Shown piece by piece: positions 4,472 to 27,824 of a stretch of 54,491 nucleotides of DNA. How positions within the stretch are numbered: position 1 is the stretch's first letter; the number at the start of each line of letters is the position of its first letter. Source of the stretch: a virus (lineage: Duplodnaviria; Caudoviricetes); the IMG/VR virus record IMGVR_UViG_3300024433_000007, positions 1 to 54,491 of that record. One strand, given 5' to 3'. The notes beneath the pieces are model-generated. The model searched no databases, was not told where the DNA came from, and saw only the letters and a program-made list of their open reading frames with translations. Both the position numbers and the translations under genes were made by a program.

Positions 4472-5957
4472 AGAATCTCCTTCTCCTTGCATGAGGACTA
4501 AAATTCCTTGAACTCCAGACGGACTTTTTCGTCATGTCTCCCGTATTCCTTATTACATTCCCCGGAAATTCATATATAACAACTCTTATTCCCCGACAAG
4601 CATCTGGACTAAGAAATGCCATGTAGGTTGCATCAGCATAGTCGGGAGACTTCATTGCACGAGCCAACATATCCTCTTTAGACTCGATCTTAATCTTGAG
4701 ATTTGATGTTGGTTTAGTTCTTATATCTCCCAATTCCATTATTACTCTATTAGGCCAATCCTTACAATATAAAGATGGAATCATCTCTCTAAGTTGCCAA
4801 TATCCCTGAGCTCTTAAATTTAAGTATCTTTCCTTTACTTCTGTCTCTGGAGCCATACTTCCTACAACTGGGACAATCATATCTCCGTAAATATCGTGGA
4901 GGCCATCATATACTCCTGCACCAATTCCAATAGCATCAACTTTTATATTAGTAGGCCCAAATTCATTGATGTACTCTATAGTCCACTGACAAATCTCTGA
5001 TGTATCTGTAACTGAACCTTTCTTATGCCTTTCATCATATTTCAGAACTTTGTTTCCCTGACGGATACATAATACACTAGATGCTCTTGCCCTCCCAACA
5101 TCAAGACCGAATTCTACAGGAAAACCTTTTACATCTGGAGGACTGTTATTTTCCATAGTATCAAGAAAGGAAGGAGGAACAAGATAAGTCGCATCGCCGG
5201 TTGCGAACTCGCCCAAAACCTTAATCATGAAGATCGGGTGATTCTCTCCATACCGTTCTGCCATCATCTCAATATATCTCTTACCAACTCTTGGTGAATC
5301 ATAACACGAAACATGCATATGGTGATACATTCTTTTCAAAGCTGGGTTGTTGAAGGTATCATAAAAGTACCCGTTTGTACGAGTAGGATTTCCTGCAAGG
5401 ATACAATATGAACCATCACCAGTAAGAGCTCCTTCCATAGCAGGAAAGATCGCATCAGGTACACCTGAAGCCTCATCCACGATGAAAAGAATATTTTCCT
5501 CATCATGAAAGCCCTGAAGTCCCTCAGCAACCTCTGCTCCAGGTCTAACTTGTGCAGTTCGAGCAACTGCATGCCATGCAGGTTCATGTCCCTTAACACC
5601 AACTCTCGTCTGCGTCCAAATAAAAAGATTACTTAATATTGGACTATTGTTGATTCTTTTGAAATGCTCTGACCATAAAACATCATGTAACTGATGCTGC
5701 GAAGGTGCTGTAGAAGGAACTTTAGAACCAGGTCTTGTAAAGAGGAACCATCTCGAAGCAAGGCCCAAGAGGAAAGTTTTTCCAACTCCAGAGCCTGAGC
5801 GAAGTGCAAGAAAATGATGCTCAACTAAGTTTTCCAGAGCTTCTATCTGCCACGGATCTAGTGCAACTCCTTCAATTTCCTCCGCATAAGCGACAGGATC
5901 ATTGTAATAATGTTGAATTGCATCTATAACTTCTTGATTTTCATGTACTGCTTCCAC
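4458..5957 (-). CDS. terL: Terminase large subunit
   Basis: Walker A SGSGVGKT, Walker B IVDEASG, GNPT motif, nuclease GLDVGR / VDAIGIGAGV / SPDYADA. Confidence 0.95.
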   Translation of the reverse strand: MEAVHENQEVIDAIQHYYNDPVAYAEEIEGVALDPWQIEALENLVEHHFLALRSGSGVGKTFLLGLASRWFLFTRPGSKVPSTAPSQHQLHDVLWSEHFKRINNSPILSNLFIWTQTRVGVKGHEPAWHAVARTAQVRPGAEVAEGLQGFHDEENILFIVDEASGVPDAIFPAMEGALTGDGSYCILAGNPTRTNGYFYDTFNNPALKRMYHHMHVSCYDSPRVGKRYIEMMAERYGENHPIFMIKVLGEFATGDATYLVPPSFLDTMENNSPPDVKGFPVEFGLDVGRARASSVLCIRQGNKVLKYDERHKKGSVTDTSEICQWTIEYINEFGPTNIKVDAIGIGAGVYDGLHDIYGDMIVPVVGSMAPETEVKERYLNLRAQGYWQLREMIPSLYCKDWPNRVIMELGDIRTKPTSNLKIKIESKEDMLARAMKSPDYADATYMAFLSPDACRGIRVVIYEFPGNVIRNTGDMTKKSVWSSRNFSPHARRRRFYGMV

Positions 5958-8556: not shown

Positions 8557-9237
8557 AATCAAACACTTAACAGTTATCCCTGAAAGTTTTTTGAGGGATA
8601 ATTGTTAAGTTATTGAGATCACTAAAGAAACAAGAAAAATTTGCTTTTGGGTTATCCTTGCAGGGATAACCGTTAAGTTATTGAAATAACTGAATAATTA
8701 GCAATTATCCCCCAATTATCCCGTTATCCCAACACTCGTTATAGGTTTCCGGTGAAGTTACGCAGCATTTTAGAGTTATGGACTTCTCTTAGTGAATAAA
8801 TATATATATATATACATATATAAAGATAGATACATAATTTCACCACTAAACAAAAAGGCGTATGTCAGGATAAGGGATAATTGGATAACCCAAACGAATT
8901 GTTCAATAATTTCAATAACTTACGTCAACTTTTGCGTTATCCCCTCTCGGATAATTCTATCGACAATTTCAAAAAAGTCAAGTAATTTCAAGGACTTATA
9001 CCCGCTTTTGACTGGATAACCGCATTCGTATTTTCACCGACTGAAATTACACAGCCAGACAAGCTGGCTCCAACAAAGCTGGGATCAGCGGGGAACCAGA
9101 ATCAACAGAGAAAATATGGAACCTTAAATTTTCAAGTTATTTCAACCACTTACAACACAAGGAAATTACTTACAGTAAAATTTACAGTCAAGCAATTTAC
9201 ATACCAAACAAGAAAATTGTCGCCTAACCTATTGAAA
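8557..9237. promoter_or_regulatory. Cluster of IHF-like sites with TTATCC/GGATAA repeats and a (TA)n tract (putative origin/packaging/enhancer region)
   Basis: WATCAAN4TTR-like sites at 8557, 8606, 8674, 8910, 8986, 9140, 9225; many TTATCC(C)/(G)GGATAA copies; TATATATA run at ~8800-8822. Confidence 0.6.
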
Positions 9238-19955: not shown

Positions 19956-20159
19956 ATGAGCGCAGATACTTTTAACATAGGAAAGGCCACAAAGGAGCAA
20001 CTTGAGGAATGGCTAAAAGATTTAAGAGAACAGCGTAAGAAAGGCTATGAAGCTCCTAAAAAAACATCAAAGAAGAAATCAGTTAATCCTTTCGAGGGTC
20101 TCGATCCGGAAGTTGCAGAAAAGGTTTTGAGAGACATGATGAAAGGAGATGGAGGATAA
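19956..20159 (+). CDS. Hypothetical protein
   Basis: ORF with RBS. Confidence 0.65.
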   Translation: MSADTFNIGKATKEQLEEWLKDLREQRKKGYEAPKKTSKKKSVNPFEGLDPEVAEKVLRDMMKGDGG

Positions 20160-20162
20160 ATT

Positions 20163-20423
20163 ATGCAATCAATACATTCAATATTACTTACAGGTGGAAC
20201 CATAGGCTTCGCTGTCGGGATAATTGCAGCAACCTTATTACTTGCATGGGGAAAGAAGAATACCTTCAAAAGATTGAGGGATATAGTAGGAGCAGGGTGG
20301 GAGATACGTTTAGAAGCTATAAGACAGAAATATTGCAAGATGCATCTTTCCTATCGTGACCCTTTTCCTTCGGAAGATATAAATTTCCTGCTTCAAGTAA
20401 TAGATATAATAAGGAAGAATTAA
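20163..20423 (+). CDS. Single-TM membrane protein
   Basis: N-terminal hydrophobic helix. Confidence 0.65.
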   Translation: MQSIHSILLTGGTIGFAVGIIAATLLLAWGKKNTFKRLRDIVGAGWEIRLEAIRQKYCKMHLSYRDPFPSEDINFLLQVIDIIRKN

Positions 20424-20440
20424 TACAAAAGGAGGATAAA

Positions 20441-20659
20441 ATGAGTTGCCAGGAATGCGAAAAAGTTAAATCTGTTTTAGCTAGATTAGTTAATTTGTAT
20501 GTTGCGAATATTGGAACAGATAGTGAATTTATAGCTTGTATAACACCTAAATCCGGAATGTCATACTTTCAACGTAGACGATCCGCTGTCTGGTCTGCAT
20601 GGGATGATGCAAGAGCTATCTTAGGCGGTAAGTATACAGCTGAAAAAGGAACGGACTAA
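20441..20659 (+). CDS. Hypothetical protein
   Basis: GGAGGATAAAATG RBS. Confidence 0.65.
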   Translation: MSCQECEKVKSVLARLVNLYVANIGTDSEFIACITPKSGMSYFQRRRSAVWSAWDDARAILGGKYTAEKGTD

Positions 20660-20660
20660 T

Positions 20661-21536
20661 ATGGAAGAACGTGAATTCTCCTTTTCTAAAATCCTTACTT
20701 ATAGTACCTGCCCTGAAAAGTACCACCTCTGTTATGGCAATCCGAGAATACTTCCTGTCCAAAAACCCAAACCTCTCGCAATGGGATCTTGCTTGGCAAA
20801 GGGTTTTGAAGGATACCGCACTACAGGCACCTTGAAAGGCGCATCTGATGCCTTCCAAAAAGAATGGATAAAAGATGGCAAGGTGCTTGGTATAAGACCC
20901 GATCCGAACAATCCAAAAGATTTCCGTACTGTCGAGAGAGGGTTAGAAATAATGAAAGATTACATTCGTCAGTATCCAAATGATAAGGATCAAATGATCG
21001 AGCCAGAAGTTAGATTTCGCCTTAAGATAGGTGAGATCAATGGAACTGCTATCTTCCTTGTCGGAAGGATCGACGGTGTATTTCTTCTTGGGAAAGATAT
21101 CTGTGTTATTGAGGATAAAAGCACAGCTGCACTCGGCCCTACATATCTACAAAATCTTCGAGATTCTCTACAGATTGGACTTTATCTTTATGCCGCTGAA
21201 AGAGATGGGCTTTTCGATGTTGGAGGTAAAAAGAAAACTCCGAAATGTCTAATGAGTGTGGTTAAGGTTCATCCAAAAGAATTTAAATATGACAGAGACC
21301 TTGCAATCAAATCGAGATCCAGTCTTGAGAAGTATAAAGACAACGCCATGGATTGGATCAGGAGAATAATGTCGTCGGAGGAAACCGGAGTTTTTCCCAA
21401 GAATGATGCAGATAACTTGACTTGTACTAAGTATGGAGGATGCGAGTATTTGCCCCTAAGATATACAGAGGGAAGTATTCGAGAAAGACTTTTGAAGAAT
21501 GAATATAAGATTTTAGATGGAAAGGAGAAAAACTGA
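20661..21536 (+). CDS. PD-(D/E)xK Cas4/RecB-like exonuclease
   Basis: SFSKI..CP..; E..GRIDG..IEDKST..Q..Y; C-terminal C..GGCEY. Confidence 0.88.
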   Translation: MEEREFSFSKILTYSTCPEKYHLCYGNPRILPVQKPKPLAMGSCLAKGFEGYRTTGTLKGASDAFQKEWIKDGKVLGIRPDPNNPKDFRTVERGLEIMKDYIRQYPNDKDQMIEPEVRFRLKIGEINGTAIFLVGRIDGVFLLGKDICVIEDKSTAALGPTYLQNLRDSLQIGLYLYAAERDGLFDVGGKKKTPKCLMSVVKVHPKEFKYDRDLAIKSRSSLEKYKDNAMDWIRRIMSSEETGVFPKNDADNLTCTKYGGCEYLPLRYTEGSIRERLLKNEYKILDGKEKN

Positions 21537-21749
21537 GTGGCCGATTTATCACAAACTAATGATTTTCTCTGCTGGCTAAAAAATATACATCCTGAAATAC
21601 ATCTTTTACCTTGGCAGGAAGATTTTGTAGGAATGTTCTTTAAAAACAAGGAAAGAGAAACATGGAATAAACATCTTTTAGTTACACCTCTTTTAACAGG
21701 CAGAACTTTCATTAAAAACCTAATTAGTGAATTTGAAAGGAGGATATAA
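21537..21749 (+). CDS. Hypothetical protein
   Basis: Abutting ORF. Confidence 0.55.
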   Translation: MADLSQTNDFLCWLKNIHPEIHLLPWQEDFVGMFFKNKERETWNKHLLVTPLLTGRTFIKNLISEFERRI

Positions 21750-22169
21750 ATGCCAGCACAAAATGATATGGAAGATCTCTACTTAACGAATCTTCAATAT
21801 GTAGAGATTCTTCTCAAGATCCAAAAGGTAGTTAATGCACCAGATTTTCAACCAACCTTCTATGACTGTACTGAGCCAGGAAATCATCATACTGACTCAA
21901 ACTGCGGATTCTGCAACGAGGGTTTTACAACTAAAGAAACAGCCTACTTTCCTGAATACTTTCCAAGCAGAACATCAATGAAGTACCGCCAAGATCACCA
22001 TCGCTGCCCTTTTGATATGGGGCCAGCAGGAATCCTAGGTTGGGGATCGGGATGCTTTTATAGATGCTATCTTTTCAACAATAAGGAACATGATATAGAT
22101 CTTATGAGAAGGATGGTAAGTAATCTTATTGAGGATGGAAACTTTTATGGAGAAACGGAAGGAGAATAA
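21750..22169 (+). CDS. Cys-rich hypothetical protein
   Basis: CGFC..CPFD..GCFYRC. Confidence 0.7.
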   Translation: MPAQNDMEDLYLTNLQYVEILLKIQKVVNAPDFQPTFYDCTEPGNHHTDSNCGFCNEGFTTKETAYFPEYFPSRTSMKYRQDHHRCPFDMGPAGILGWGSGCFYRCYLFNNKEHDIDLMRRMVSNLIEDGNFYGETEGE

Positions 22170-22955
22170 ATGAATTTTTTACTGATATCGCCTCCAGGTG
22201 GAGGTAAAACAACATCTGCCTGTTCAGGCAGACATCCGACGTTGATCGTAGATGTCGATGGTAAAGCTCATGAAATGATGAACATCAAACCTCTAATTGA
22301 TAAAGGCGATGTTGTAGTCAAAGCCTTTGAAGATCGCCTTGTCGAGGATAAGATGTCGTATCGAGCACTTCATCCTGATGAACCTCCGAAGAAGCAGCCC
22401 ACAGGTTTCATCTCTGTCGTAGATTTTCTAAATGAAATCCTCGATGGCAGTGCCGAGCTTGACAAATTCAATACTGTTGTTTTGGATTCACTAACAAGAT
22501 TGAGCGAGCACCTGAAAAGCCTTCTGGTCTATCTTCGTGGACAAGGGAAGTTCGGAAAGAAGATTGAGGGCGACTTAAACTGGCCAAGTTGGGGATCATA
22601 CTTGAAAAACTGGGAGGAATTATTCTCCAACATGTGTACCTACTTTCAGAGGGACTTTATCTGTACAGCTCATCTAAAGATTATGACAGAAAATACAACT
22701 ATGATGGTAGGGCCTCAAGTTGTTGAGACGGAGGTCGTAGTAGGCTATAAACCTCTCATTGATGGACAGATGCGAGACAAACTTTCCGGATACTTTAATG
22801 AATGTTATTTTCTAGAGGCTAAAACTTCAGGGAAAAATCCTAAGTATCAGTTTCGTACAAGGGGAACAAAATACGACGCAAGAACATCATTACCACTTGA
22901 TGAGTTCGAGGATGCAGATATTATGAAGATATTAAGGAAGGCAGGAATCTCATAA
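22170..22955 (+). CDS. AAA_24/Sak4-like ATPase recombinase
   Basis: PPGGGKTT Walker A, VVLDSLT Walker B, ICTAH motif; context between exonuclease and SSB. Confidence 0.85.
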   Translation: MNFLLISPPGGGKTTSACSGRHPTLIVDVDGKAHEMMNIKPLIDKGDVVVKAFEDRLVEDKMSYRALHPDEPPKKQPTGFISVVDFLNEILDGSAELDKFNTVVLDSLTRLSEHLKSLLVYLRGQGKFGKKIEGDLNWPSWGSYLKNWEELFSNMCTYFQRDFICTAHLKIMTENTTMMVGPQVVETEVVVGYKPLIDGQMRDKLSGYFNECYFLEAKTSGKNPKYQFRTRGTKYDARTSLPLDEFEDADIMKILRKAGIS

Positions 22956-22959
22956 AGAA

Positions 22960-23112
22960 ATGAAAAAAGAAATGTGTAAAATCTGCGAAGGGAAAAAATA
23001 CATAAAATATTTTTTGGAGTGTGATGATGCCCCAAGTATAGCATGCCCAAAGTGCAATGGCGGAAGTTGGAAAAAATATAGATATTATGAAAAGCGCATA
23101 AGAAAAATCTAA
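22960..23112 (+). CDS. Cassette 1: CxxC..CxxC zinc-finger protein (50 aa)
   Basis: MKKEMCKICEG..ACPKCNGG; stop TAA lies within the R'' box ATCTAAC. Confidence 0.65.
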   Translation: MKKEMCKICEGKKYIKYFLECDDAPSIACPKCNGGSWKKYRYYEKRIRKI

Positions 23113-23163
23113 CAAGCCTCATGCATCCGACCCCCAAAGTTGCGGCTGATTGAGGCGTTAGGA
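23107..23163 (+). other. attC site 1
   Basis: ATCTAAC-AAGCCTC-ATGCATCCGAC...GCGGCTGAT-TGAGGC-GTTAGGA. Confidence 0.8.
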
Positions 23164-23169
23164 GGAAAT

Positions 23170-23367
23170 ATGTTAATAATTCTAATGTATGTTGTTATGG
23201 CGTTCATTATTTTTATGTGCGTTGATACCGTGCTTTATGTAAAAGCCCCATGGCCTGAACGTACAAAACACTTTTATTATAAATTGCCTGGTGGAGGAAT
23301 AGTGGCATATTTCCACCTATCAAGCACACAGAACCGACCGCAAAAGCCAAGCAAGATTGAAGAGTAG
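23170..23367 (+). CDS. Cassette 2: membrane protein
   Basis: AGGAGG RBS formed from R'; N-terminal TM helix. Confidence 0.65.
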   Translation: MLIILMYVVMAFIIFMCVDTVLYVKAPWPERTKHFYYKLPGGGIVAYFHLSSTQNRPQKPSKIEE

Positions 23368-23396
23368 TCTGTGTGCGGCTGATTAGGGCGTTAGAT
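23315..23396 (+). other. attC site 2 (degenerate R'')
   Basis: ACCTATC-AAG..CCGACCGCA...TGCGGCTGAT-TAGGGC-GTTAGAT. Confidence 0.65.
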
Positions 23397-23404
23397 TTTT
23401 TGTT

Positions 23405-23554
23405 ATGAAAATATCCATATCTTGTCCAGTATGCAGAATTAAATATTGTCTACTTCGTGATGGCATACAATTTATTTGTACGTCATGTGGAAGCTCTTTT
23501 TCTTTTGACGATTTACGCAAAAAATCTAACAAGGCCATCGAGCCGACCCGATAA
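23405..23554 (+). CDS. Cassette 3: zinc-ribbon protein (49 aa)
   Basis: MKISISCPVC..FICTSCGSSF..; runs into attC3. Confidence 0.6.
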   Translation: MKISISCPVCRIKYCLLRDGIQFICTSCGSSFSFDDLRKKSNKAIEPTR

Positions 23555-23582
23555 ATCGTGCGGCTCATAGGCAGCGTTAGAT
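23524..23582 (+). other. attC site 3
   Basis: ATCTAAC-AAGGC-CATCGAGCCGAC...GCGGCTCAT-AGGCAGC-GTTAGAT, canonical layout. Confidence 0.88.
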
Positions 23583-23599
23583 TTTTAGGAGATATAAAA

Positions 23600-23779
23600 A
23601 TGAAATATAGAAATTCAGTATCATTAGAAGAATGGTTCGAAAGAGCGAGAAGAGGAACATCTGGTGATATGGTATTTGATATTCTTTCCGATTGGAAATT
23701 AGATCGAGATGAATTACTTAAACAAATAAAAAATCTAATCAGTAAATCCAGCCGACAGGATAAACCTGCGGCTGATTAG
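23600..23779 (+). CDS. Cassette 4: hypothetical protein
   Basis: AGGAGA RBS; reads through attC4. Confidence 0.65.
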   Translation: MKYRNSVSLEEWFERARRGTSGDMVFDILSDWKLDRDELLKQIKNLISKSSRQDKPAAD

Positions 23780-23789
23780 GGCGTTAGGC
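23733..23789 (+). other. attC site 4
   Basis: ATCTAAT..ATCCAGCCG-A-CAGG-ATAAA-CCTG-CGGCTGAT-TAGGGC-GTTAGGC. Confidence 0.82.
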
Positions 23790-23794
23790 AGAAA

Positions 23795-24037
23795 ATGAAA
23801 GAATTATCACAAGCGGATAAAATAGCTATTGAAGTTGCAGGTATATCCATTGGTGATTTACCTAAAGGTTGTCATAATTTTTGCATATTAATTTGGAAAG
23901 TCTTTAATCTGGGCAGAGAGTATGAAAAAGCATTTTCTGCCCAACAAGCCAATAGAGCTGACTGTGAGATACCAGGCGAATTAGACATCTGCAAAACCTG
24001 TGCTGCAAAGAAATTATTTGATGAATCTTTGAAATAA
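23795..24037 (+). CDS. Cassette 5: hypothetical protein containing a half attC
   Basis: Starts right after R'; internal GCCCAAC-AAGCC-AATAGAGCTGAC at 23939. Confidence 0.6.
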   Translation: MKELSQADKIAIEVAGISIGDLPKGCHNFCILIWKVFNLGREYEKAFSAQQANRADCEIPGELDICKTCAAKKLFDESLK

Positions 24038-24125
24038 GCCCGCCCGTTGGATAGGCCAACAAGCTGAATAAACGTCTTCATTCGACCAGCTAAAGGCGGG
24101 CTAAACCTAAAAGAAAGGAGTAATT

Positions 24126-24311
24126 ATGTGTAATAATCCAGCAAAGTACAGATATACTTGGCCTGGAACAGATGAAGCATTCATTTGCGAAGATCATGTT
24201 GATAGACTTCGAGGAATAGCAAATGTGATAGGGCTGCACCTTCAAGTTATTTTATTAACAAAAGAAGAACTGATGGTAGAGTTGATTTGTAATCAGAAAG
24301 ATAGTCCATAG
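24126..24311 (+). CDS. Small Cys/His protein
   Basis: CNNPAKYRYTWPG..CEDH. Confidence 0.7.
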   Translation: MCNNPAKYRYTWPGTDEAFICEDHVDRLRGIANVIGLHLQVILLTKEELMVELICNQKDSP

Positions 24312-24334
24312 ATCACCATAAGAAAGGATCAACT

Positions 24335-24952
24335 ATGAAAAAATTATTCGTTTTTTTATTCTTATTAATCCTGATTTCAATTACTCCAGCCAATGCCTTT
24401 GAATTAGAAGTCAAAGGATCGCAGATGATTTATAATGACAAAGAGACAAAGGCTGGTCCTGGCATTGAATTAAAGGTTAAGATAAATGATCTATATGGTT
24501 ATCTATCAGAAAGCCGAATCTGGCTCTATGGAGACTGGATAAGGCTTAACGGGTTTGGGGTAGGTTTTGAGTATTCAATTACAAAGAGGATCTCCTTTTG
24601 GTCTCAAATTGGATACTATGTACCTGATTATAGAGAAGACCAGTTTTGTATTGAACAGTTAGGGGGATACCAGAATAAGTATTTGGCTGGAGTTGCTGAT
24701 ACACCCACTTGGTGGCCGAGGTACACTGCTAACTGGGCAAGCGACTTTGGTGGTGAGCTTGGGATTGACTATCATCGGCGAATCTATTGGAAAATTTCAT
24801 TTGGAGGCTTTATTAGCTATCGTTGCCTACGTTTAAACGAAATGGTAACGAGCTATAAAGAGATAGACAGTGACGACGTTGCCTGGTTCGTAGAACAGAA
24901 CCGAGGCTTCGGCGGCTTCAAAGTAGGATTCCAAATATCATACGAATTTTAA
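24335..24952 (+). CDS. Outer-membrane beta-barrel protein
   Basis: Signal peptide ending PANA-F; alternating amphipathic strands; C-terminal GFQISYEF. Confidence 0.75.
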   Translation: MKKLFVFLFLLILISITPANAFELEVKGSQMIYNDKETKAGPGIELKVKINDLYGYLSESRIWLYGDWIRLNGFGVGFEYSITKRISFWSQIGYYVPDYREDQFCIEQLGGYQNKYLAGVADTPTWWPRYTANWASDFGGELGIDYHRRIYWKISFGGFISYRCLRLNEMVTSYKEIDSDDVAWFVEQNRGFGGFKVGFQISYEF

Positions 24953-25043
24953 GAAGGAAAGTTATGAAAGGAGGTGAATCGCAAAGCACACCAGGCTAAG
25001 GAAAGTATTATCAACTATTAACTTTAAATGAAAGGAAAGTCTG

Positions 25044-25418
25044 ATGACAAGAATAAACGTGCATCTTGACGATGTTGAAAGTGGGTTCGAGTTATTCCCT
25101 GATGGCACTCATCTCGTCACAATTCAACCATCTTCAAAGTTGAAGAAGTCCGATGCAGGAGCCTACATCCAAGTCATTTCCAAGTGCGATGAGGGCGAGA
25201 TGGAAGGAAAGATGATTGGATGGAACTGTTCTCTGCTTCCACAAAGCCTCTGGGTTTTGAAGAGCATGCTCGAAGCTCTCGGTCAGAAATGGGATGAGGA
25301 TGGATTTGAGCTTGAAGATATTTTCGAGCAGCAGCTGATGATAGATGTTACCTCAAGAGAGTATCCGGAAGGAAGTGGAGAGTATCGGAATCAGGTTGAT
25401 GGTTATCATGCAGCGTAA
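25044..25418 (+). CDS. Single-stranded DNA-binding protein (DUF669-like)
   Basis: FELFPDGTH..V.I; LWVLKSMLEALG; EY..RNQV pattern; Sak4 module context. Confidence 0.75.
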   Translation: MTRINVHLDDVESGFELFPDGTHLVTIQPSSKLKKSDAGAYIQVISKCDEGEMEGKMIGWNCSLLPQSLWVLKSMLEALGQKWDEDGFELEDIFEQQLMIDVTSREYPEGSGEYRNQVDGYHAA

Positions 25419-25424
25419 GTAGTT

Positions 25425-25547
25425 TGGGAGAGTGGCGGTATGATAAGTGTCCTAACAGAACCTATCATTATTGATGCACGGATGGCGGAACGTTACGTCA
25501 TCTGTGGAGAGCTCGCACACGGTGTTGAGTAACCTCTCACTCTCCCA
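25425..25547 (+). ncRNA. Putative four-way-junction structured RNA
   Basis: Perfect 10-bp closing stem TGGGAGAGTG/CACTCTCCCA enclosing three hairpins, one of 11 bp with two GU pairs. Confidence 0.5.
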
Positions 25548-25706
25548 TCATCCAAATTTCCAAAGTCATTTTACAGTTTTTTAAACCGTGAAAAAACCTT
25601 TTCTGGCCGCCAAACGCCCGTCCCGTGCGGCTTTCACAAGGCCACTAAGGGCATAGCCTTAAAAACCTTTTAACTTACCACGTGTGGCCTATTTTGGCCT
25701 TTTAAA

Positions 25707-26015
25707 ATGAAAGAAAAAACAATGGAAAATCTGCCTCTTAAAGATCGTTTTCACTTAGTTAGACTCTCAAAAGATATGAATAAAAATGGAATGGCCAAAA
25801 TGCTTCGCATTTCTCCCTCATATTTAACAAGACTGGAGAATGGAGAGAGGCCCATACCGCAGTACATTATAGATCTGCTTGAGTTAGATCGTTCTGTAAC
25901 TTTCAGGTGGTATTATAATATTATGCATGCCTTAAAACCTTTCACAAAGCATTATTTGTCACAGGAAGAGATAGAAGAATCCAAAAAAGTTTTAAAAGTA
26001 GTTTTGGGAATCTAA
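25707..26015 (+). CDS. XRE-family HTH regulator
   Basis: RLSKDMNKNGMAKMLRISPSYLTRLENGERP. Confidence 0.85.
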   Translation: MKEKTMENLPLKDRFHLVRLSKDMNKNGMAKMLRISPSYLTRLENGERPIPQYIIDLLELDRSVTFRWYYNIMHALKPFTKHYLSQEEIEESKKVLKVVLGI

Positions 26016-26473
26016 TGCGTAGTCCATGTTATGAATGCAAATTAAGAAATGAAGATAAAAATAATGAACGATGCCGGAGTTGTGAGAGGCGTATTGCATA
26101 TGCACAGGCGACGCAACTAATCTCATCTGAGACTTCCGATAGTATAGAAGAAGAGAGAATGACCGATGGAGCAGCCGAGAAAATAATGACTGTTCAAGAG
26201 ATGGATGTAAGTTACAAAGAAGTCCTCCAAGATATTGAAGATCTGAGAAAAGAGATTCCAAGACGAAAAGGAAAAAAGAGAGGACGAAAGTCCTTAGAAA
26301 GTCCAAGTCCGATTAGGAGGCCCCAGATGTATATAAAGTTCGGGCCTAAGTATTTCGATATTCATCGAGACTTAGTAAATATAGCTGAGTTAGAGCATTG
26401 AACAATAGTGCTACAAGCTCTTTACTTTATAAAAGAAGGAATCGCTAAATACAAGGAGAATTCTAATGAATGA
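26015..26473 (+). CDS. Cys-rich N-terminal / RHH-like C-terminal protein with apparent premature TGA at 26399
   Basis: SPCYEC..CRSC; frame continues TIVLQALYFIKEGI to a TGA overlapping the next ATG. Confidence 0.55.
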
Positions 26474-27824
26474 TAAAGAAGTAACAGTTCCTGTTGAAAG
26501 CATCACTGTCGAGGGTCGAGCTAGAATAGAGTTAGGCAATTTAGAGGAATTGCAAGGCAGTATCGAAAGGGTAGGTCAACTTAATGCTATCATCATAAAC
26601 AAAAAGGATAACAGTCTTGTCGCAGGCTATCGACGTTTAACCTGCTTTAAGAATTTAGGATTAAAAAAGATAAGAGTACTATATAAAGAAGATCTTTCTC
26701 CTTTAATGAAAAAGGTAATCGAACGTGAAGAGAATCTTCATAAGGAATTAGAATGGAATGAGCATGCCAAACTACGTGCAGAAATACATGTTCTTCTTCA
26801 AGAAGAGCATGGAGCAGCAGTTAAAGGTCACAAAAGTGGAGGGTGGTCTTTGGAAGATAGTGCTAACTATTTAGGAGTTTCTATAGGAACACTGTCGCAG
26901 GACATCTCCTTGATCGAGGCGATGGAAGCTCTTCCCAAGATTGCCGAATTCAGCTCGAAGAAACAGGCTCTAAAGAGCCTTGGTAAAATAAAAGAGATGG
27001 CCATTTTGACGGAGTTGGCTAGGAGAGATAAGGAGGAAGGATTTGCACTGACTAAAAGTTCTGATCCTTATATGCTCTTTCAAAAAGATAGTGTAGAATA
27101 TGTTAGGGAAAGTATAGATAATGAAACTATAGACTTAATAATCTTCGATCCTCCTTGGGGAATAAATGCAGATGATATAGCAGACGCTCGTGGCCCAAGA
27201 GGAGAAAAAACATTCTACGATGATTCAGAGGAAACCTCCAAAAACCTTATCCACAAATTGATGCCCGAACTGTATAGAGTAATGAAGACTGATTCGCACA
27301 TGTATATGTTTATAGGATCACAATTTGGTAGTTATTATGTAAATCTTCTACAAAATCAGAAACCCATTGTCGATGCTCTCGGTGTTATTACAGATTATGA
27401 AGTTCTCGATCCAAAACGTAAATGGCGATTTGATGTTAGACCTTTTCCTTTAGTTTGGGTCAAGGAGGGAGGTGGATATACAGATTTTGAGTATAAGTTC
27501 ATGCCACGTTATGAAAATATTCTCTTCTGTACTAAAGGCCGTCGGCCCCTAAACTATGTTACTTCAGATGTATTTATCTTTAATCGTCCTCTTTCTACAG
27601 AAAGAATTCATCCACAACAAAAGTCTCTTGAACTCCTTAAAGAATTTATCAAGTTGTCATCTCATCAGGACGAGATCGTTCTTGATCCCACGATGGGAAG
27701 CGGAGCGGTCATAGTCGCTGCTATCTTAACAAGTCGGAGATCAATAGGTGTTGAGAAGGATGCAGAACAATTTTTGAAGGCGGAGAACTGGATTAAGGGA
27801 ATACAGCATGAGAAAGGAGAATAA
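26466..27824 (+). CDS. ParB/Srx domain fused to beta-class N6-A/N4-C DNA methyltransferase
   Basis: LVAGYRRL and EREENL (ParB), HTH, DPPW (motif IV), HPQQK, DPTMGSG (motif I). Confidence 0.9.
   Translation: MNDKEVTVPVESITVEGRARIELGNLEELQGSIERVGQLNAIIINKKDNSLVAGYRRLTCFKNLGLKKIRVLYKEDLSPLMKKVIEREENLHKELEWNEHAKLRAEIHVLLQEEHGAAVKGHKSGGWSLEDSANYLGVSIGTLSQDISLIEAMEALPKIAEFSSKKQALKSLGKIKEMAILTELARRDKEEGFALTKSSDPYMLFQKDSVEYVRESIDNETIDLIIFDPPWGINADDIADARGPRGEKTFYDDSEETSKNLIHKLMPELYRVMKTDSHMYMFIGSQFGSYYVNLLQNQKPIVDALGVITDYEVLDPKRKWRFDVRPFPLVWVKEGGGYTDFEYKFMPRYENILFCTKGRRPLNYVTSDVFIFNRPLSTERIHPQQKSLELLKEFIKLSSHQDEIVLDPTMGSGAVIVAAILTSRRSIGVEKDAEQFLKAENWIKGIQHEKGE

What the first reader, a model, noticed from the sequence alone, without database searches (positions are those of the whole stretch)
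22960..24037. Integron cassette array (attC sites, no integrase) inside a phage recombination module
Seen: four 57-82 nt imperfect palindromes with RYYYAAC...GTTRRRY-type ends and inner L-box stems (23107, 23315, 23524, 23733). They share AGCCGAC...GCGGCTSAT-like cores and separate five promoterless 49-80 aa co-oriented ORFs; one stop codon falls inside R''. No tyrosine recombinase is visible in the window. Known: this is integron cassette architecture, normally found on chromosomes or plasmids. Inference: the phage captured the cassettes, or still exchanges them via a host IntI, and expresses them from its own operon. That would make the locus a plug-in cargo slot between Sak4 and SSB.
Basis: partly seen in the sequence, partly recalled or inferred. 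Interest (0 to 1): 0.9.

Follow-up and report, generated by a model that had tools for sequence, protein, structure and literature searches.

The report
Integron gene cassettes inside a phage
An uncultured phage carries a short row of tiny genes separated by the folded DNA sites that bacterial integrons use to swap genes, with no integrase of its own; this is a clean new example of a phenomenon first described in 2023.

Summary
Four imperfect palindromes (23107-23163, 23315-23396, 23524-23582, 23733-23789) are integron attC sites. One half-site recurs in an attC of a Shewanella cassette array whose genome has an IntI gene at another contig end. A model built from the phage sites picks the aadA1 attC as top hit in 50 kb of plasmid R100. 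A model built only from 12 dissimilar Shewanella attCs ranks three phage sites first in the window. Each cassette's R'' pairs with its own 5' end, not its neighbour's, as in the Shewanella array.

No tyrosine or serine recombinase was found in the window or in four relatives. So this is a CALIN. It lies in a 2.0-kb block (22959-24963) that three close relatives lack. The Sak4-to-DUF669-like gap is hypervariable in 11 relatives.

Phage CALINs are published (Qi et al. 2023, PMC9892861), and this scan has noted them on other DNA, so this is a new member of a known kind. New here: very small cassettes (186-233 bp), and two related phage contigs carry arrays elsewhere. Ongoing exchange is not shown.

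The parts
22170..22955 (+). Sak4-like ssDNA-annealing ATPase; conserved left flank of the slot
   Evidence: phrog_124 E 1.7e-17; PF13479 E 9.3e-12; 89 homologues at E<=1e-10
22959..24963 (+). 2.0-kb block absent from the three closest relatives found (Sak4 79-87% aa identity)
   Evidence: blastn homology to L090, L091 and L092 stops at 22915-22958 and resumes at 24964-24966; junction sequences read
22960..23112 (+). cassette ORF c1, 50 aa, CxxC...CxxC zinc-ribbon-like; its 5' cassette boundary is not identifiable
   Evidence: stop TAA 23110-23112 lies inside R'' of attC1; no Pfam or PHROG hit
23107..23163 (+). attC1 (57 nt), ATCTAAC...GTTAGGA
   Evidence: R2 (bacterial-only model) 16.3 bits, E 0.09, second-best hit in the window; bottom-strand fold z -2.4; right half 19/21 identical to the attC2/attC4 21-mer, and this variant of the 21-mer occurs in a Shewanella attC at L001 2394-2414
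23170..23367 (+). cassette ORF c2, 65 aa, N-terminal hydrophobic helix; AGGAGG lies 4 nt upstream of the ATG
   Evidence: weak phrog_18969 'membrane protein' hit, E 0.003
23315..23396 (+). attC2 (82 nt); weak local hairpin because its R'' matches its own cassette's 5' end
   Evidence: R'' extension pairs 14/16 with the cassette's own 5' end (23157-) against 6/16 with the next cassette; missed by R2; fold z -0.4
23405..23554 (+). cassette ORF c3, 49 aa, zinc ribbon; reads through R'' and L'' of attC3
   Evidence: sub-threshold zinc-ribbon Pfam hits; the contig piece 23416-23537 has depth 89.8 against 20-24 for its neighbours in run X1
23524..23582 (+). attC3 (59 nt), the best-formed site
   Evidence: R2 25.1 bits, E 5.9e-4, top hit in the window; bottom-strand fold -20.6 kcal/mol, z -6.8, with a bulged T in GTCGGCT
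23600..23779 (+). cassette ORF c4, 59 aa; member of an uncharacterised small-protein family (EW..A.RGTSGDMV.DIL.DWK.DR)
   Evidence: 122 representatives at E<=1e-3; alignment A9; AF2 model of two helices, pLDDT 79.8; no Pfam or PHROG hit for the core
23733..23789 (+). attC4 (57 nt), ATCTAAT...GTTAGGC
   Evidence: R2 15.0 bits, E 0.2, third-best hit; fold z -3.95 with a bulged T; right-half 21-mer identical to that of attC2
23795..24037 (+). cassette ORF c5, 80 aa, chimeric. Residues 1-48 are homologous to P0093. Residues 58-80 are identical to the C-termini of three otherwise unrelated small proteins
23939..23961 (+). R''-L'' half of a fifth attC (GCCCAACAAGCC...GCTGAC) with no recognisable R'
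   Evidence: its R'' extension pairs 14/16 with the 5' end of cassette 5 (I7); no R1 or R2 hit here; fold of 23925-24062 no better than shuffles
24038..24110 (.). GC-rich compound hairpin (AGCCCGCC...GGCGGGCT) of unresolved nature
   Evidence: bottom-strand fold -17.3 kcal/mol, z -4.4; terminator-like call on the minus strand
24126..24311 (+). 61-aa ORF inside the inserted block, no attC after it
   Evidence: no family hit; absent from relatives
24335..24952 (+). 205-aa ORF inside the inserted block. From reading the sequence it has a signal-peptide-like N-terminus and ends in ...SYEF, suggesting an outer-membrane beta-barrel (inference)
   Evidence: only 1 other homologue, 73% identical; no Pfam or PHROG hit
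   Evidence: PF05037 E 0.0068, 17 bits, below the 21-bit cut-off; 40-87% identical homologues directly after Sak4 in 11 relatives

Best explanation
The locus is a genuine integron cassette array without an integrase (a CALIN), carried inside the early/recombination operon of an uncultured tailed phage of about 60 kb.

Layout: at least three complete cassettes (23158-23390, 23391-23576, 23577-23783). Before them lies a first cassette whose 5' edge is lost. After them lies a fifth whose attC is cut off after L''. They are in canonical orientation: ORF, then R''-L''-loop-L'-R'.

How it was built (inferred): the cassettes were assembled by an integron integrase cutting between G and TT of R'. This is why each R'' still matches the 5' end of its own cassette. 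The array then entered the phage as part of a 2.0-kb block in a hypervariable gap between the Sak4-like gene and the DUF669-like gene. The entry was probably by short-homology or illegitimate recombination at a ribosome-binding-site-like repeat, not by IntI.

How it works now (inferred): the tiny genes are transcribed by read-through from the phage operon. Two of them carry their own Shine-Dalgarno sequence just after R'. The attC sites could be cut, excised or exchanged only by an IntI supplied by an integron-bearing host.

Shown: identity of the sites, the cassette boundaries, absence of a recombinase gene, and the block's presence or absence among relatives. Inferred: expression, the route of entry, and present-day mobility.
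For: (1) Homology to a real integron.
- The 21-mer TGCGGCTGATTRRGGCGTTAG has one exact hit in 185,579 species genomes. It lies in an attC of a Shewanella jiangmenensis array of 14 attC-separated cassettes at a contig end.
- That genome has an IntI (TIGR02249, 298.7 bits, cut-off 265) at the end of another contig, in an orientation that fits a join.

(2) Model R1, built from the 4 phage sites.
- It hits Shewanella attCs at 52.9, 40, 26.8, 21 and 18.4 bits, all on the array strand.
- Its best hit in 50 kb of R100 is the aadA1 attC, directly 3' of aadA1 (19.6 bits, E 0.0076).

(3) Model R2, built from 12 Shewanella attCs of a different, longer type.
- It ranks sites 3, 1 and 4 first, second and third in the 54-kb window, on the right strand (25.1, 16.3 and 15.0 bits).

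(4) Crossover signature.
- The R'' extension pairs with the cassette's own 5' end in 14, 13, 10 and 14 of 16 positions. It pairs with the next cassette's 5' end in 6, 12 and 6 of 16.
- The bona fide Shewanella array shows own greater than next in 12 of 13 cassettes, with 1 tie.

(5) Base pairing over 23 phage and bacterial sites.
- 89.8% of cells are paired, against 27-47% when partners are slid by 1-3 columns.
- 6 of 16 pairs change on both sides.
- The covariation score is 0.203 against 0.095 in shuffles; 0 of 500 shuffles reach it.

(6) A bulged T in GTCGGCT on the bottom strand appears in the folds of sites 3 and 4.

(7) No recombinase. TIGR02249, PF00589 and PF00239 gave 0 hits in the window. 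PF00589 and PF00239 also gave 0 in 4 relatives, one of them CheckV-100% complete at 60,270 b.

(8) The block is absent from L090, L091 and L092. The slot length is 60-1490 bp in 11 relatives.

(9) It is not an assembly chimera. In run X1 one contig joins Sak4 to attC1 and another joins c5's tail to the DUF669-like gene. The unique cassette pieces have the backbone's depth (20.3-22.3 against 22.2-24.3).
Against: - Site 2 folds no better than shuffles and is missed by R2.
- Two of the three R2 hits are individually non-significant (E 0.09 and 0.2).
- R1 and its derived alignment are fitted to my own structure, so the pairing percentages lean towards it.
- IntegronFinder's own attC model was not available.
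- The left edge of the block has no GTT, and the fifth attC lacks an R', so the array is damaged at both ends.
- The three closest relatives differ by the whole block, not cassette by cassette. That gives no sign of IntI activity within the phage lineage.
- The record is a linear fragment (CheckV estimate 50%), so a recombinase gene in the missing part cannot be excluded.
- Expression was not tested; no RNA run holds the stretch.
Confidence: 0.85

Rival explanations
1. Live exchange. The array is not only a captured relic. Cassettes are still excised, inserted or swapped in this phage by the IntI of integron-bearing hosts during infection. Phage single-stranded DNA and the SOS response would favour attC folding and intI expression.
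For: - attC1, attC3 and attC4 are intact and close to bacterial attCs.
- In the probable source run, the contig piece 23416-23537 (ORF c3 plus R'' of attC3) has depth 89.8 against 20-24 for its neighbours.
- Contigs sharing attC1, cassette 3 or attC3 run on into other sequence at 23162, 23388 and 23537. So the same cassette and sites exist in other contexts in that community.
- Two related phage contigs carry attC sites at other genome positions. L025/L088 has them in the exonuclease-Sak4 gap (R2 34.1 bits). L038 has 7 R1 hits.
- Qi et al. 2023 (Results read) showed that 5 of 6 phage attCs recombine with IntI1.
Against: - No relative differs from the window by single cassettes. L090, L091 and L092 lack the whole block.
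- The outer junctions are not at G|TT.
- The only joint seen inside the array (23591 to 23965, depth 5.9, 20 letters on the shorter side) is weak and not at an attC crossover.
- Only contigs, not raw reads, were available, so rare excision products could not be seen.
- The host, and whether it has an integron, are unknown.
Confidence: 0.3
2. Assembly or binning artefact. A fragment of a bacterial integron was joined into a phage contig through repeated attC sequences.
For: The contigs of run X1 break at attC1, attC3 and two other points inside the array, and one piece is about 4-fold deeper. Repeats of this kind can mislead assemblers.
Against: - Contig 1 (14,322 b) runs from the phage backbone through Sak4 and c1 into attC1. 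Contig 8 (6,179 b) runs from c5's tail through the 61-aa and 205-aa ORFs into the DUF669-like gene. Both outer junctions are therefore spanned.
- The unique cassette pieces have backbone-like depth.
- Cassette coding parts are 30-35% GC, close to the phage's 39.8%.
- Relative L025/L088 has attCs well inside a 60.6-kb phage contig.
Confidence: 0.04
3. Phage-intrinsic hairpin repeats (terminators, RNA processing sites or T4-type promoter-stem-loop shuffling elements) that merely resemble attC sites.
For: - The elements sit between small early genes, as such repeats do.
- Terminator-like sites in 20000-26500 are about twice the number in shuffles (10 against 4.6 +/- 2.3), and one lies in attC3 on the minus strand.
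- attC sites are said to act as weak terminators (Qi et al. 2023, Results).
Against: - The sites are homologous in sequence and structure to attCs of an integron array and to the aadA1 attC.
- R'' pairs with the cassette's distant own 5' end rather than with the adjacent sequence. A local hairpin function does not predict this.
- Promoter-like sites are not enriched.
- No Rfam family matches in 22000-25600.
Confidence: 0.03

Closest known systems
CALINs (clusters of attC sites lacking an integron integrase) in bacteriophage genomes; Qi, Rajabal, Ghaly, Tetu and Gillings 2023, Front Microbiol 14:1091391 (PMC9892861; outline and the whole Results and discussion read; supplements not seen)
   Same: - Co-oriented small ORFs separated by attC sites, with no integrase gene, inside a phage that has no tyrosine integrase.
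- That paper reports 17 CALINs in 10,705 phage genomes, including virulent phages of marine hosts (Pseudoalteromonas PH101, Polaribacter P12002L). It showed that 5 of 6 phage attCs recombine with IntI1.
   Different: - This phage is an uncultured metagenomic one with no close isolate; its capsid protein is below 40% identical to any INPHARED phage.
- The cassettes are very small (186-233 bp).
- The attCs match a bacterial integron array at near-identity.
- Two related phage contigs carry attC sites at other positions.
- I could not see the paper's Supplementary Table S1, so I cannot say whether a relative is among its 17 cases.
Sedentary chromosomal integron of Shewanella (here S. jiangmenensis, NZ_JAHEPS010000007.1 = L001; IntI on another contig end)
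   Same: - The same attC sub-type occurs there: ...CAGCCGAC-loop-TGCGGCTGATTGAGGCGTTAG, 52.9 bits with the phage model.
- The ORF-then-attC orientation is the same.
- The own-5'-end complementarity of R'' is the same.
   Different: - The bacterial array has an IntI in the genome, and mostly longer attCs (57-127 nt; 12 of 14 are not the phage type).
- Its cassettes are larger (331-977 bp, median 427, from the G positions).
- The sub-type is not specific to Shewanella. R1 hits 40 of 148 Shewanella genomes and 28 of 151 genomes sampled from the whole order. It therefore does not name the host.
attC of the aadA1 cassette of class 1 integron In2 (plasmid R100, NC_002134)
   Same: TCTAACAA...AAGCCGAC...GCGGCT...GCGTTAGAT with the same spacing. 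It is the phage model's only hit with E<1 in 50 kb, both strands.
   Different: The score is only 19.6 bits and the spacer and loop differ. The aadA1 attC sits next to intI1, attI1 and a resistance gene, none of which is present in the phage.
Short-homology module shuffling at conserved gene boundaries in phages (recalled general concept, not from a call)
   Same: The 2.0-kb block, and an unrelated 132-bp insert in relative L090, both sit at the repeat (GTAA)ATGAAAGGAGG between the Sak4 and DUF669-like genes.
   Different: This explains only how the block as a whole entered the slot. It does not explain the attC-bounded structure inside the block.

Membership tests
integron attC recombination site | Inverted outer cores R'' (RYYYAAC) and R' (GTTRRRY) | tested here: met
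   Read. Sites 1, 2 and 4 each have one core with a single mismatch. Site 3 matches both cores perfectly.
integron attC recombination site | Inner L''/L' stem with extrahelical base(s) on the folded bottom strand, and an unpaired spacer between the R and L stems | tested here: met
   Sites 3 and 4 show a bulged T in GTCGGCT. Sites 1 and 3 show an unpaired spacer next to the R stem. Site 2 does not form this structure locally. The names of these features are recalled from the literature, not from a call.
integron attC recombination site | Match to an attC covariance model | tested here: inconclusive
   IntegronFinder's model was not available. Substitute R2 (12 Shewanella attCs, no phage-like ones) ranks sites 3, 1 and 4 as the top three of the window. 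Only site 3 is significant on its own (E 5.9e-4, 0.09 and 0.2), and site 2 is missed.
integron attC recombination site | Homology to sites in arrays belonging to an integron with IntI | tested here: met
   The comparators are the Shewanella array (IntI 298.7 bits, on an adjacent contig end) and the aadA1 attC next to intI1 in R100.
integron attC recombination site | Crossover at G|TT, so that a cassette's R'' matches its own 5' end | tested here: met
   own 14, 13, 10 and 14 of 16; next 6, 12 and 6 of 16. Control: 12 of 13 Shewanella cassettes show own greater than next.
integron attC recombination site | Recombination by an integron integrase | not testable with these tools
   This needs the attC x attI conjugation assay.
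CALIN (cluster of attC sites lacking an integrase) | Two or more attC sites close together with no intI nearby | tested here: met
   Four sites lie within 683 bp. There was no TIGR02249 or PF00589 hit in the 54.5-kb record. The record is a fragment, so a distant intI is not excluded.
complete integron | intI gene | tested here: not met
   0 hits. The controls matched in 14 of 14 genomes.
complete integron | attI site and Pc promoter at the head of the array | tested here: not met
   The Shewanella-type attI motif quoted in PMC9892861 gave 0 matches at up to 3 mismatches. There is no GTT at the left edge. Other attI types were not tested.
T4-type promoter-stem-loop shuffling elements (name recalled, not from a call) | A promoter joined to each stem-loop | tested here: not met
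   promoter-like sites are below the number in shuffles, and none lies at the repeats.

The most novel reading that the evidence does not exclude
This lineage of roughly 60-kb phages keeps part of its small early accessory genes (possibly host-takeover or anti-defence genes) as unusually small integron cassettes. It uses the host's IntI in trans to shuffle them. Phages and bacterial integrons would then draw on one common cassette pool, and phages could be a source of new cassettes.

Observations that leave this open:
- Arrays or attC sites occur at three different genome positions in three related contigs (window, L025/L088, L038).
- The cassettes are about half the size of those in the Shewanella array.
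- Cassette c3 is about 4-fold more abundant than the phage in the same sample.
- Proteins of the c4 family, one of which is fused to the DUF551 domain, often end in peptides that read like translated attC sequence.
Probability: 0.2. Interest if true: 0.8.

Novelty: new member of a known kind. Interest (0 to 1): 0.5.

Why it matters
Integron cassettes are now known to hold many anti-phage defence genes. That phages themselves carry attC-bounded genes is a recent and thinly documented observation. This locus is a clean case. The sites can be tied by near-identity to a real bacterial integron, and the cassette boundaries carry the crossover signature. The array sits in a defined hypervariable slot whose empty state is seen in close relatives.

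It gives a concrete substrate for testing whether a host integrase can move genes into and out of a phage that has no recombinase gene in the recovered record. It also offers five tiny early proteins of unknown role as candidates for host-takeover or counter-defence functions. It does not establish a new kind of system.

Tried and rejected
Searches that led nowhere:
- megablast of 20000-27000 against phage isolates: no match.
- blastn of 23100-23800 against plasmids: only chance AT-rich hits, E 0.05-8. BLAST is too insensitive for attCs.
- The exact 21-mer in IMG/VR: 0 contigs.
- Sak4 as a single query in IMG/VR: none. The alignment A7 was needed.
- Rfam on 22000-25600: nothing relevant.
- Shewanella-type attI motif: 0 matches.

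Host assignment to Shewanella is rejected. The attC sub-type is about as common in an order-wide sample (28 of 151) as in Shewanella (40 of 148). The capsid protein has only relatives below 40% identity, on many hosts. The 205-aa protein has a single unnamed homologue.

A complete long fifth attC (23939-24056, R' GTTGGAT) was considered and rejected. Its fold is no better than shuffles (z 0.15) and it gets no model hit.

The palindrome at 8563-8612 gets weak R1 and R2 scores (11.7 and 13.9 bits) but is a perfect 17-bp hairpin in the AT-rich control region. I do not take it for an attC.

Function of c4: no Pfam or PHROG hit for the core, and no Foldseek match at E<=0.001 in BFVD.

c4 homologues in 15 viral contigs: none has a strong attC next to it. 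The own-5'-end test on L038 could be parsed reliably for only 2 of 7 sites.

Run X2 (marine sediment) holds only the flanks and scraps of the block. Its uncovered parts say nothing. The joint 23591 to 23965 in X1 is too weak (20 letters on the shorter side) to count as excision.

Supplements of PMC9892861 were not seen.
Full report
**What the window is.** It is a linear IMG/VR virus record of 54,491 b with a CheckV completeness estimate of 50%. It encodes a portal, large terminase, prohead protease, major capsid protein and a J-like tail protein. It also encodes a family-A DNA polymerase, a primase and a ParB-methyltransferase fusion. Around the finding lie a PD-(D/E)XK exonuclease (20661-21536) and a Sak4-like annealing protein (22170-22955). 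Relatives found through Sak4 lie on contigs of 46-63 kb, one rated 100% complete at 60,270 b. I therefore infer that only a few kb are missing here. No isolate is close: megablast found nothing, and the capsid protein is below 40% identical to any INPHARED phage.

**The observation.** Their cores fit RYYYAAC/GTTRRRY with at most one mismatch per site. All share CCGAC...TGCGGCT(G/C)AT...GCGTTAG. The five ORFs are co-oriented, and the stop of the first lies inside R''. As single-stranded DNA the bottom strands of sites 3, 4 and 1 fold better than shuffles (z -6.8, -3.95, -2.4). Site 2 does not (z -0.4). Sites 3 and 4 show a single bulged T in GTCGGCT opposite AGCCG-C. Sites 1 and 3 show an unpaired spacer next to the R stem. 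I recall these as the extrahelical base and unpaired central spacer of attC sites.

**Are they attC sites?** Four lines of evidence bear on this.

- *Link to a real integron.* The 21-mer TGCGGCTGATTRRGGCGTTAG has a single exact match among one genome each of 185,579 species, in Shewanella jiangmenensis. Read on its minus strand, that 7.3-kb locus is a textbook cassette array. It has 14 ORF-plus-palindrome units ending in ...GCGTTA. Two of the palindromes closely resemble the phage sites. The locus is the end of a 183,267-b contig. The same genome has an integron integrase above the curated cut-off (TIGR02249, 298.7 bits against 265) 300 b from the end of another contig. That gene is oriented so that a join would give intI, then attI, then cassettes.
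- *Phage model against bacteria.* Model R1, built from the four phage sites, scores Shewanella attCs at 52.9, 40, 26.8, 21 and 18.4 bits, all on the array strand. In 50 kb of plasmid R100 its best hit is the attC of aadA1, starting 3 nt after the aadA1 stop (19.6 bits, E 0.0076). The next hit has E 1.3.
- *Bacterial model against the phage.* Model R2 was built only from the 12 Shewanella attCs that do not resemble the phage sites. It ranks sites 3, 1 and 4 first to third in the whole window, with the right coordinates and strand (25.1, 16.3 and 15.0 bits; E 5.9e-4, 0.09 and 0.2). Site 2 is missed. The fourth hit is an unrelated perfect palindrome at 8564-8610.
- *Covariation.* On 23 sites from the window, 12 Shewanella loci and the related phage contig L038, 89.8% of cells pair, against 27-47% when partners are slid. 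Six of 16 pairs change on both sides. No shuffle out of 500 reaches the covariation score. This alignment is fitted to my structure, which favours it.

**The crossover signature.** I tested this. Integron recombination cuts between G and TT of R'. The bases after that G therefore belong to the next cassette, and a cassette's R'' should match its own 5' end. Over 16 nt, R'' of attC2 pairs 14/16 with its own cassette's start and 6/16 with the adjacent sequence. For attC3 the figures are 13 against 12, and for attC4 10 against 6. This explains why site 2 is a poor local hairpin. The same test on the Shewanella array gives own greater than next in 12 of 13 cassettes, with one tie. The test also reveals a fifth R'' (GCCCAAC, 23939-23945) that pairs 14/16 with the start of cassette 5. 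It is followed by an L''-like stretch but by no R'.

**What is missing.** The window has no hit for the integron-integrase family, the tyrosine-recombinase family or the serine-recombinase family. For the last two, four relatives also have none, including the complete one. The controls matched in 14, 14 and 12 of 14 genomes. A Shewanella-type attI is absent. The locus therefore meets the definition of a CALIN, not of a complete integron.

**Context among relatives.**
- Eleven related loci keep the order exonuclease, Sak4, DUF669-like gene, ParB-methyltransferase. A twelfth, L032, matched only Sak4.
- The Sak4-to-DUF669-like gap is about 60, 74, 95, 228, 295, 300, 357, 470, 870, 920 and 1490 bp in these relatives, against 2088 bp in the window.
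- None of c1-c5, the 61-aa ORF or the 205-aa ORF has a tblastn match in any of them.
- In the three closest relatives (Sak4 79-87% identical), nucleotide homology stops at 22915-22958 and resumes at 24964-24966. The inserted unit is thus the whole 2.0-kb block, including the two ORFs that have no attC.
- In relative L091 the Sak4 stop is followed directly by ATGAAAGGAGGTGA..., which equals window 24964 onward. Relative L090 has a different 132-bp insert there, flanked by a 15-nt direct repeat GTAAATGAAAGGAGG. The window's left junction reads ...CATAAAGAAATGAAAAAAG and its right junction ...GGAAAGTTATGAAAGGAGG.

I infer that the slot turns over by short-homology recombination at this ribosome-binding-site-like repeat. 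The array would then have come in as a block rather than cassette by cassette.

**Other phages with the same sites.**
- L025/L088 is the nearest IMG/VR relative (Sak4 65% identical). It has an attC at L025 5460-5522 (R1 23.4 bits, R2 34.1 bits) and a weaker one at 5223-5287 (R1 19.1 bits). Both lie after small ORFs in the exonuclease-to-Sak4 gap.
- L038 has a J-like tail protein 64% identical over 762 residues. It has seven R1 hits within 2.3 kb (51.9 to 13.9 bits; two also hit by R2 at 35.0 and 29.4 bits). The spacings are about 200-700 bp. This array lies at a contig end, so its position in that genome is uncertain.
- A strict pattern for this attC sub-type occurs in 56 IMG/VR contigs. An IntI homologue lies within the fetched flanks in 3 of them.
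- Seven other relatives' records have no R1 hit.

**The cargo.**
- c1 and c3 are CxxC...CxxC zinc-ribbon-like peptides. c2 has a hydrophobic N-terminus.
- c4 belongs to a family with 122 representatives and a conserved RGTSGDMV.DIL.DW motif. The family is not in Pfam or PHROGs. The c4 model is a two-helix hairpin, and no structural match reached E<=0.001.
- Several c4 homologues end in KSNK.IEPT or KNLTNKSS. These are what R''-L'' of this attC type encodes in the window's c3 and c4. This suggests that they too are followed by attCs, but it rests on protein sequence alone.
- c5 is chimeric. Residues 1-48 match P0093. Residues 58-80 are identical to the C-termini of three proteins with unrelated N-termini. 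The junction lies at the fifth R''.
- Cassette coding parts are 30-35% GC, the attCs 49-53% and the phage 39.8%.
- Cassette lengths are 233, 186 and 207 bp, against 331-977 bp (median 427) in the Shewanella array (G positions).

**Community data.** One run, a subsurface metagenome and probably the source sample, holds the stretch. It was available only as contigs.
- One contig runs from the backbone through Sak4 and c1 into attC1. Another runs from c5's tail to beyond the DUF669-like gene.
- The unique cassette pieces have depths of 20.3 and 22.3, against 22.2 and 24.3 for the backbone. This argues against a chimeric assembly.
- The piece 23416-23537 (ORF c3 and R'' of attC3) has depth 89.8.
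- Contigs sharing attC1, cassette 3 or attC3 continue into other sequence at 23162, 23388 and 23537.

The same cassette and sites therefore exist in other contexts in that community. This fits a mobile cassette pool but does not show exchange in this phage.

**Comparison with what is known.** Qi et al. 2023 screened 10,705 phage genomes. They reported 3 complete integrons, one In0 and 17 CALINs, some of them in virulent phages. They showed IntI1-mediated recombination for 5 of 6 phage attCs (outline and Results read; supplements not seen). Two literature searches turned up no other paper with primary results on attC sites in phage genomes. This scan has itself flagged many phage attC arrays on other DNA.

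The present locus is thus a new member of a known kind. It is noteworthy for four things: the near-identity of its sites to a bacterial integron array, the clear crossover signature, the very small cassettes, and a defined empty-site state in close relatives.

The host remains unknown. The attC sub-type is found in 40 of 148 Shewanella genomes but also in 28 of 151 genomes sampled across the same order.

**Verdict.** Observation confirmed and interpretation supported. Confidence that this is a genuine integron-type cassette array carried by the phage is 0.85. Confidence that it is still being exchanged through a host IntI is about 0.3. Interest is 0.5.

Noticed in passing
L025 4600-6010 (= L088, IMGVR_UViG_3300005613_000070): The nearest IMG/VR relative has attC sites after small ORFs in the exonuclease-to-Sak4 gap (5460-5522 strong, 5223-5287 weaker). 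By eye there are further R''-like remnants (TAACAAG) at about 4819, 5553 and 5962.
   Followed up: partly
L038 400-2320 (IMGVR_UViG_3300016457_000870): A contig with tail genes related to the window's (J-like protein 64% identical) starts with an array of seven attC hits of the same sub-type. Several spacings are only about 200 bp. The array is at the contig end, so it could also be a prophage-host junction.
   Followed up: partly
L103 2215-2911 (the same sequence in L102 and L104): Three attC-like sites lie just upstream of a c4-family gene. They have normal R'' (TCTAAC or CATAAC) but ATT in place of GTT in R'. Scores are weak (about 15 bits).
   Followed up: no
L090 1921-2070: A 132-bp insert carrying a roughly 35-aa ORF is flanked by a 15-nt direct repeat, GTAAATGAAAGGAGG. 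It sits at the same Sak4-to-DUF669-like junction where the window has its 2.0-kb block. Relative L091 has the empty site.
   Followed up: partly
window 8563-8612: A perfect 17-bp palindrome (ACTTAACAGTTATCCCT...AGGGATAATTGTTAAGT) lies in the AT-rich divergent control region. Fold z is -6 to -7 on both strands. It gets weak scores from both attC models only because of its TTAACA/TGTTAA ends.
   Followed up: partly
window 24038-24110: A GC-rich compound hairpin (stem AGCCCGCC/GGCGGGCT enclosing two smaller hairpins, z -4.4) follows ORF c5. It contains GTTGG-ATAGG-CCAAC and ends in GGCGGGCTAAAC, which looks like an R' region lacking GT. Its nature is unresolved.
   Followed up: partly
window 23795-24037 and proteins P0093-P0096: ORF c5 is a mosaic. 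Its last 23 residues (EIPGELDICKTCAAKKLFDESLK) are identical in three small proteins with unrelated N-termini. A contig encoding one such variant is present in run X1, seen as a loose end before 23965.
   Followed up: partly
G001:C30:233825-234857 (L002, L005): The Shewanella jiangmenensis IntI matches the family model in two pieces. Positions 1-269 lie in a 341-aa frame. Positions 268-315 lie in another stretch with one TAA. The gene may be frameshifted or truncated.
   Followed up: no
IMG/VR loci L033-L088: A strict pattern for the aadA1/Shewanella-like attC sub-type occurs in 56 viral contigs. Only 3 have an IntI homologue in the fetched flanks, one of them a class 1 IntI1 at 99.7% identity. 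Several contigs have 2-4 matches.
   Followed up: partly
whole window: CheckV rates the record 50% complete. However, it holds both the structural and the replication modules, and a relative rated 100% complete is only 60,270 b. The estimate looks too low.
   Followed up: no
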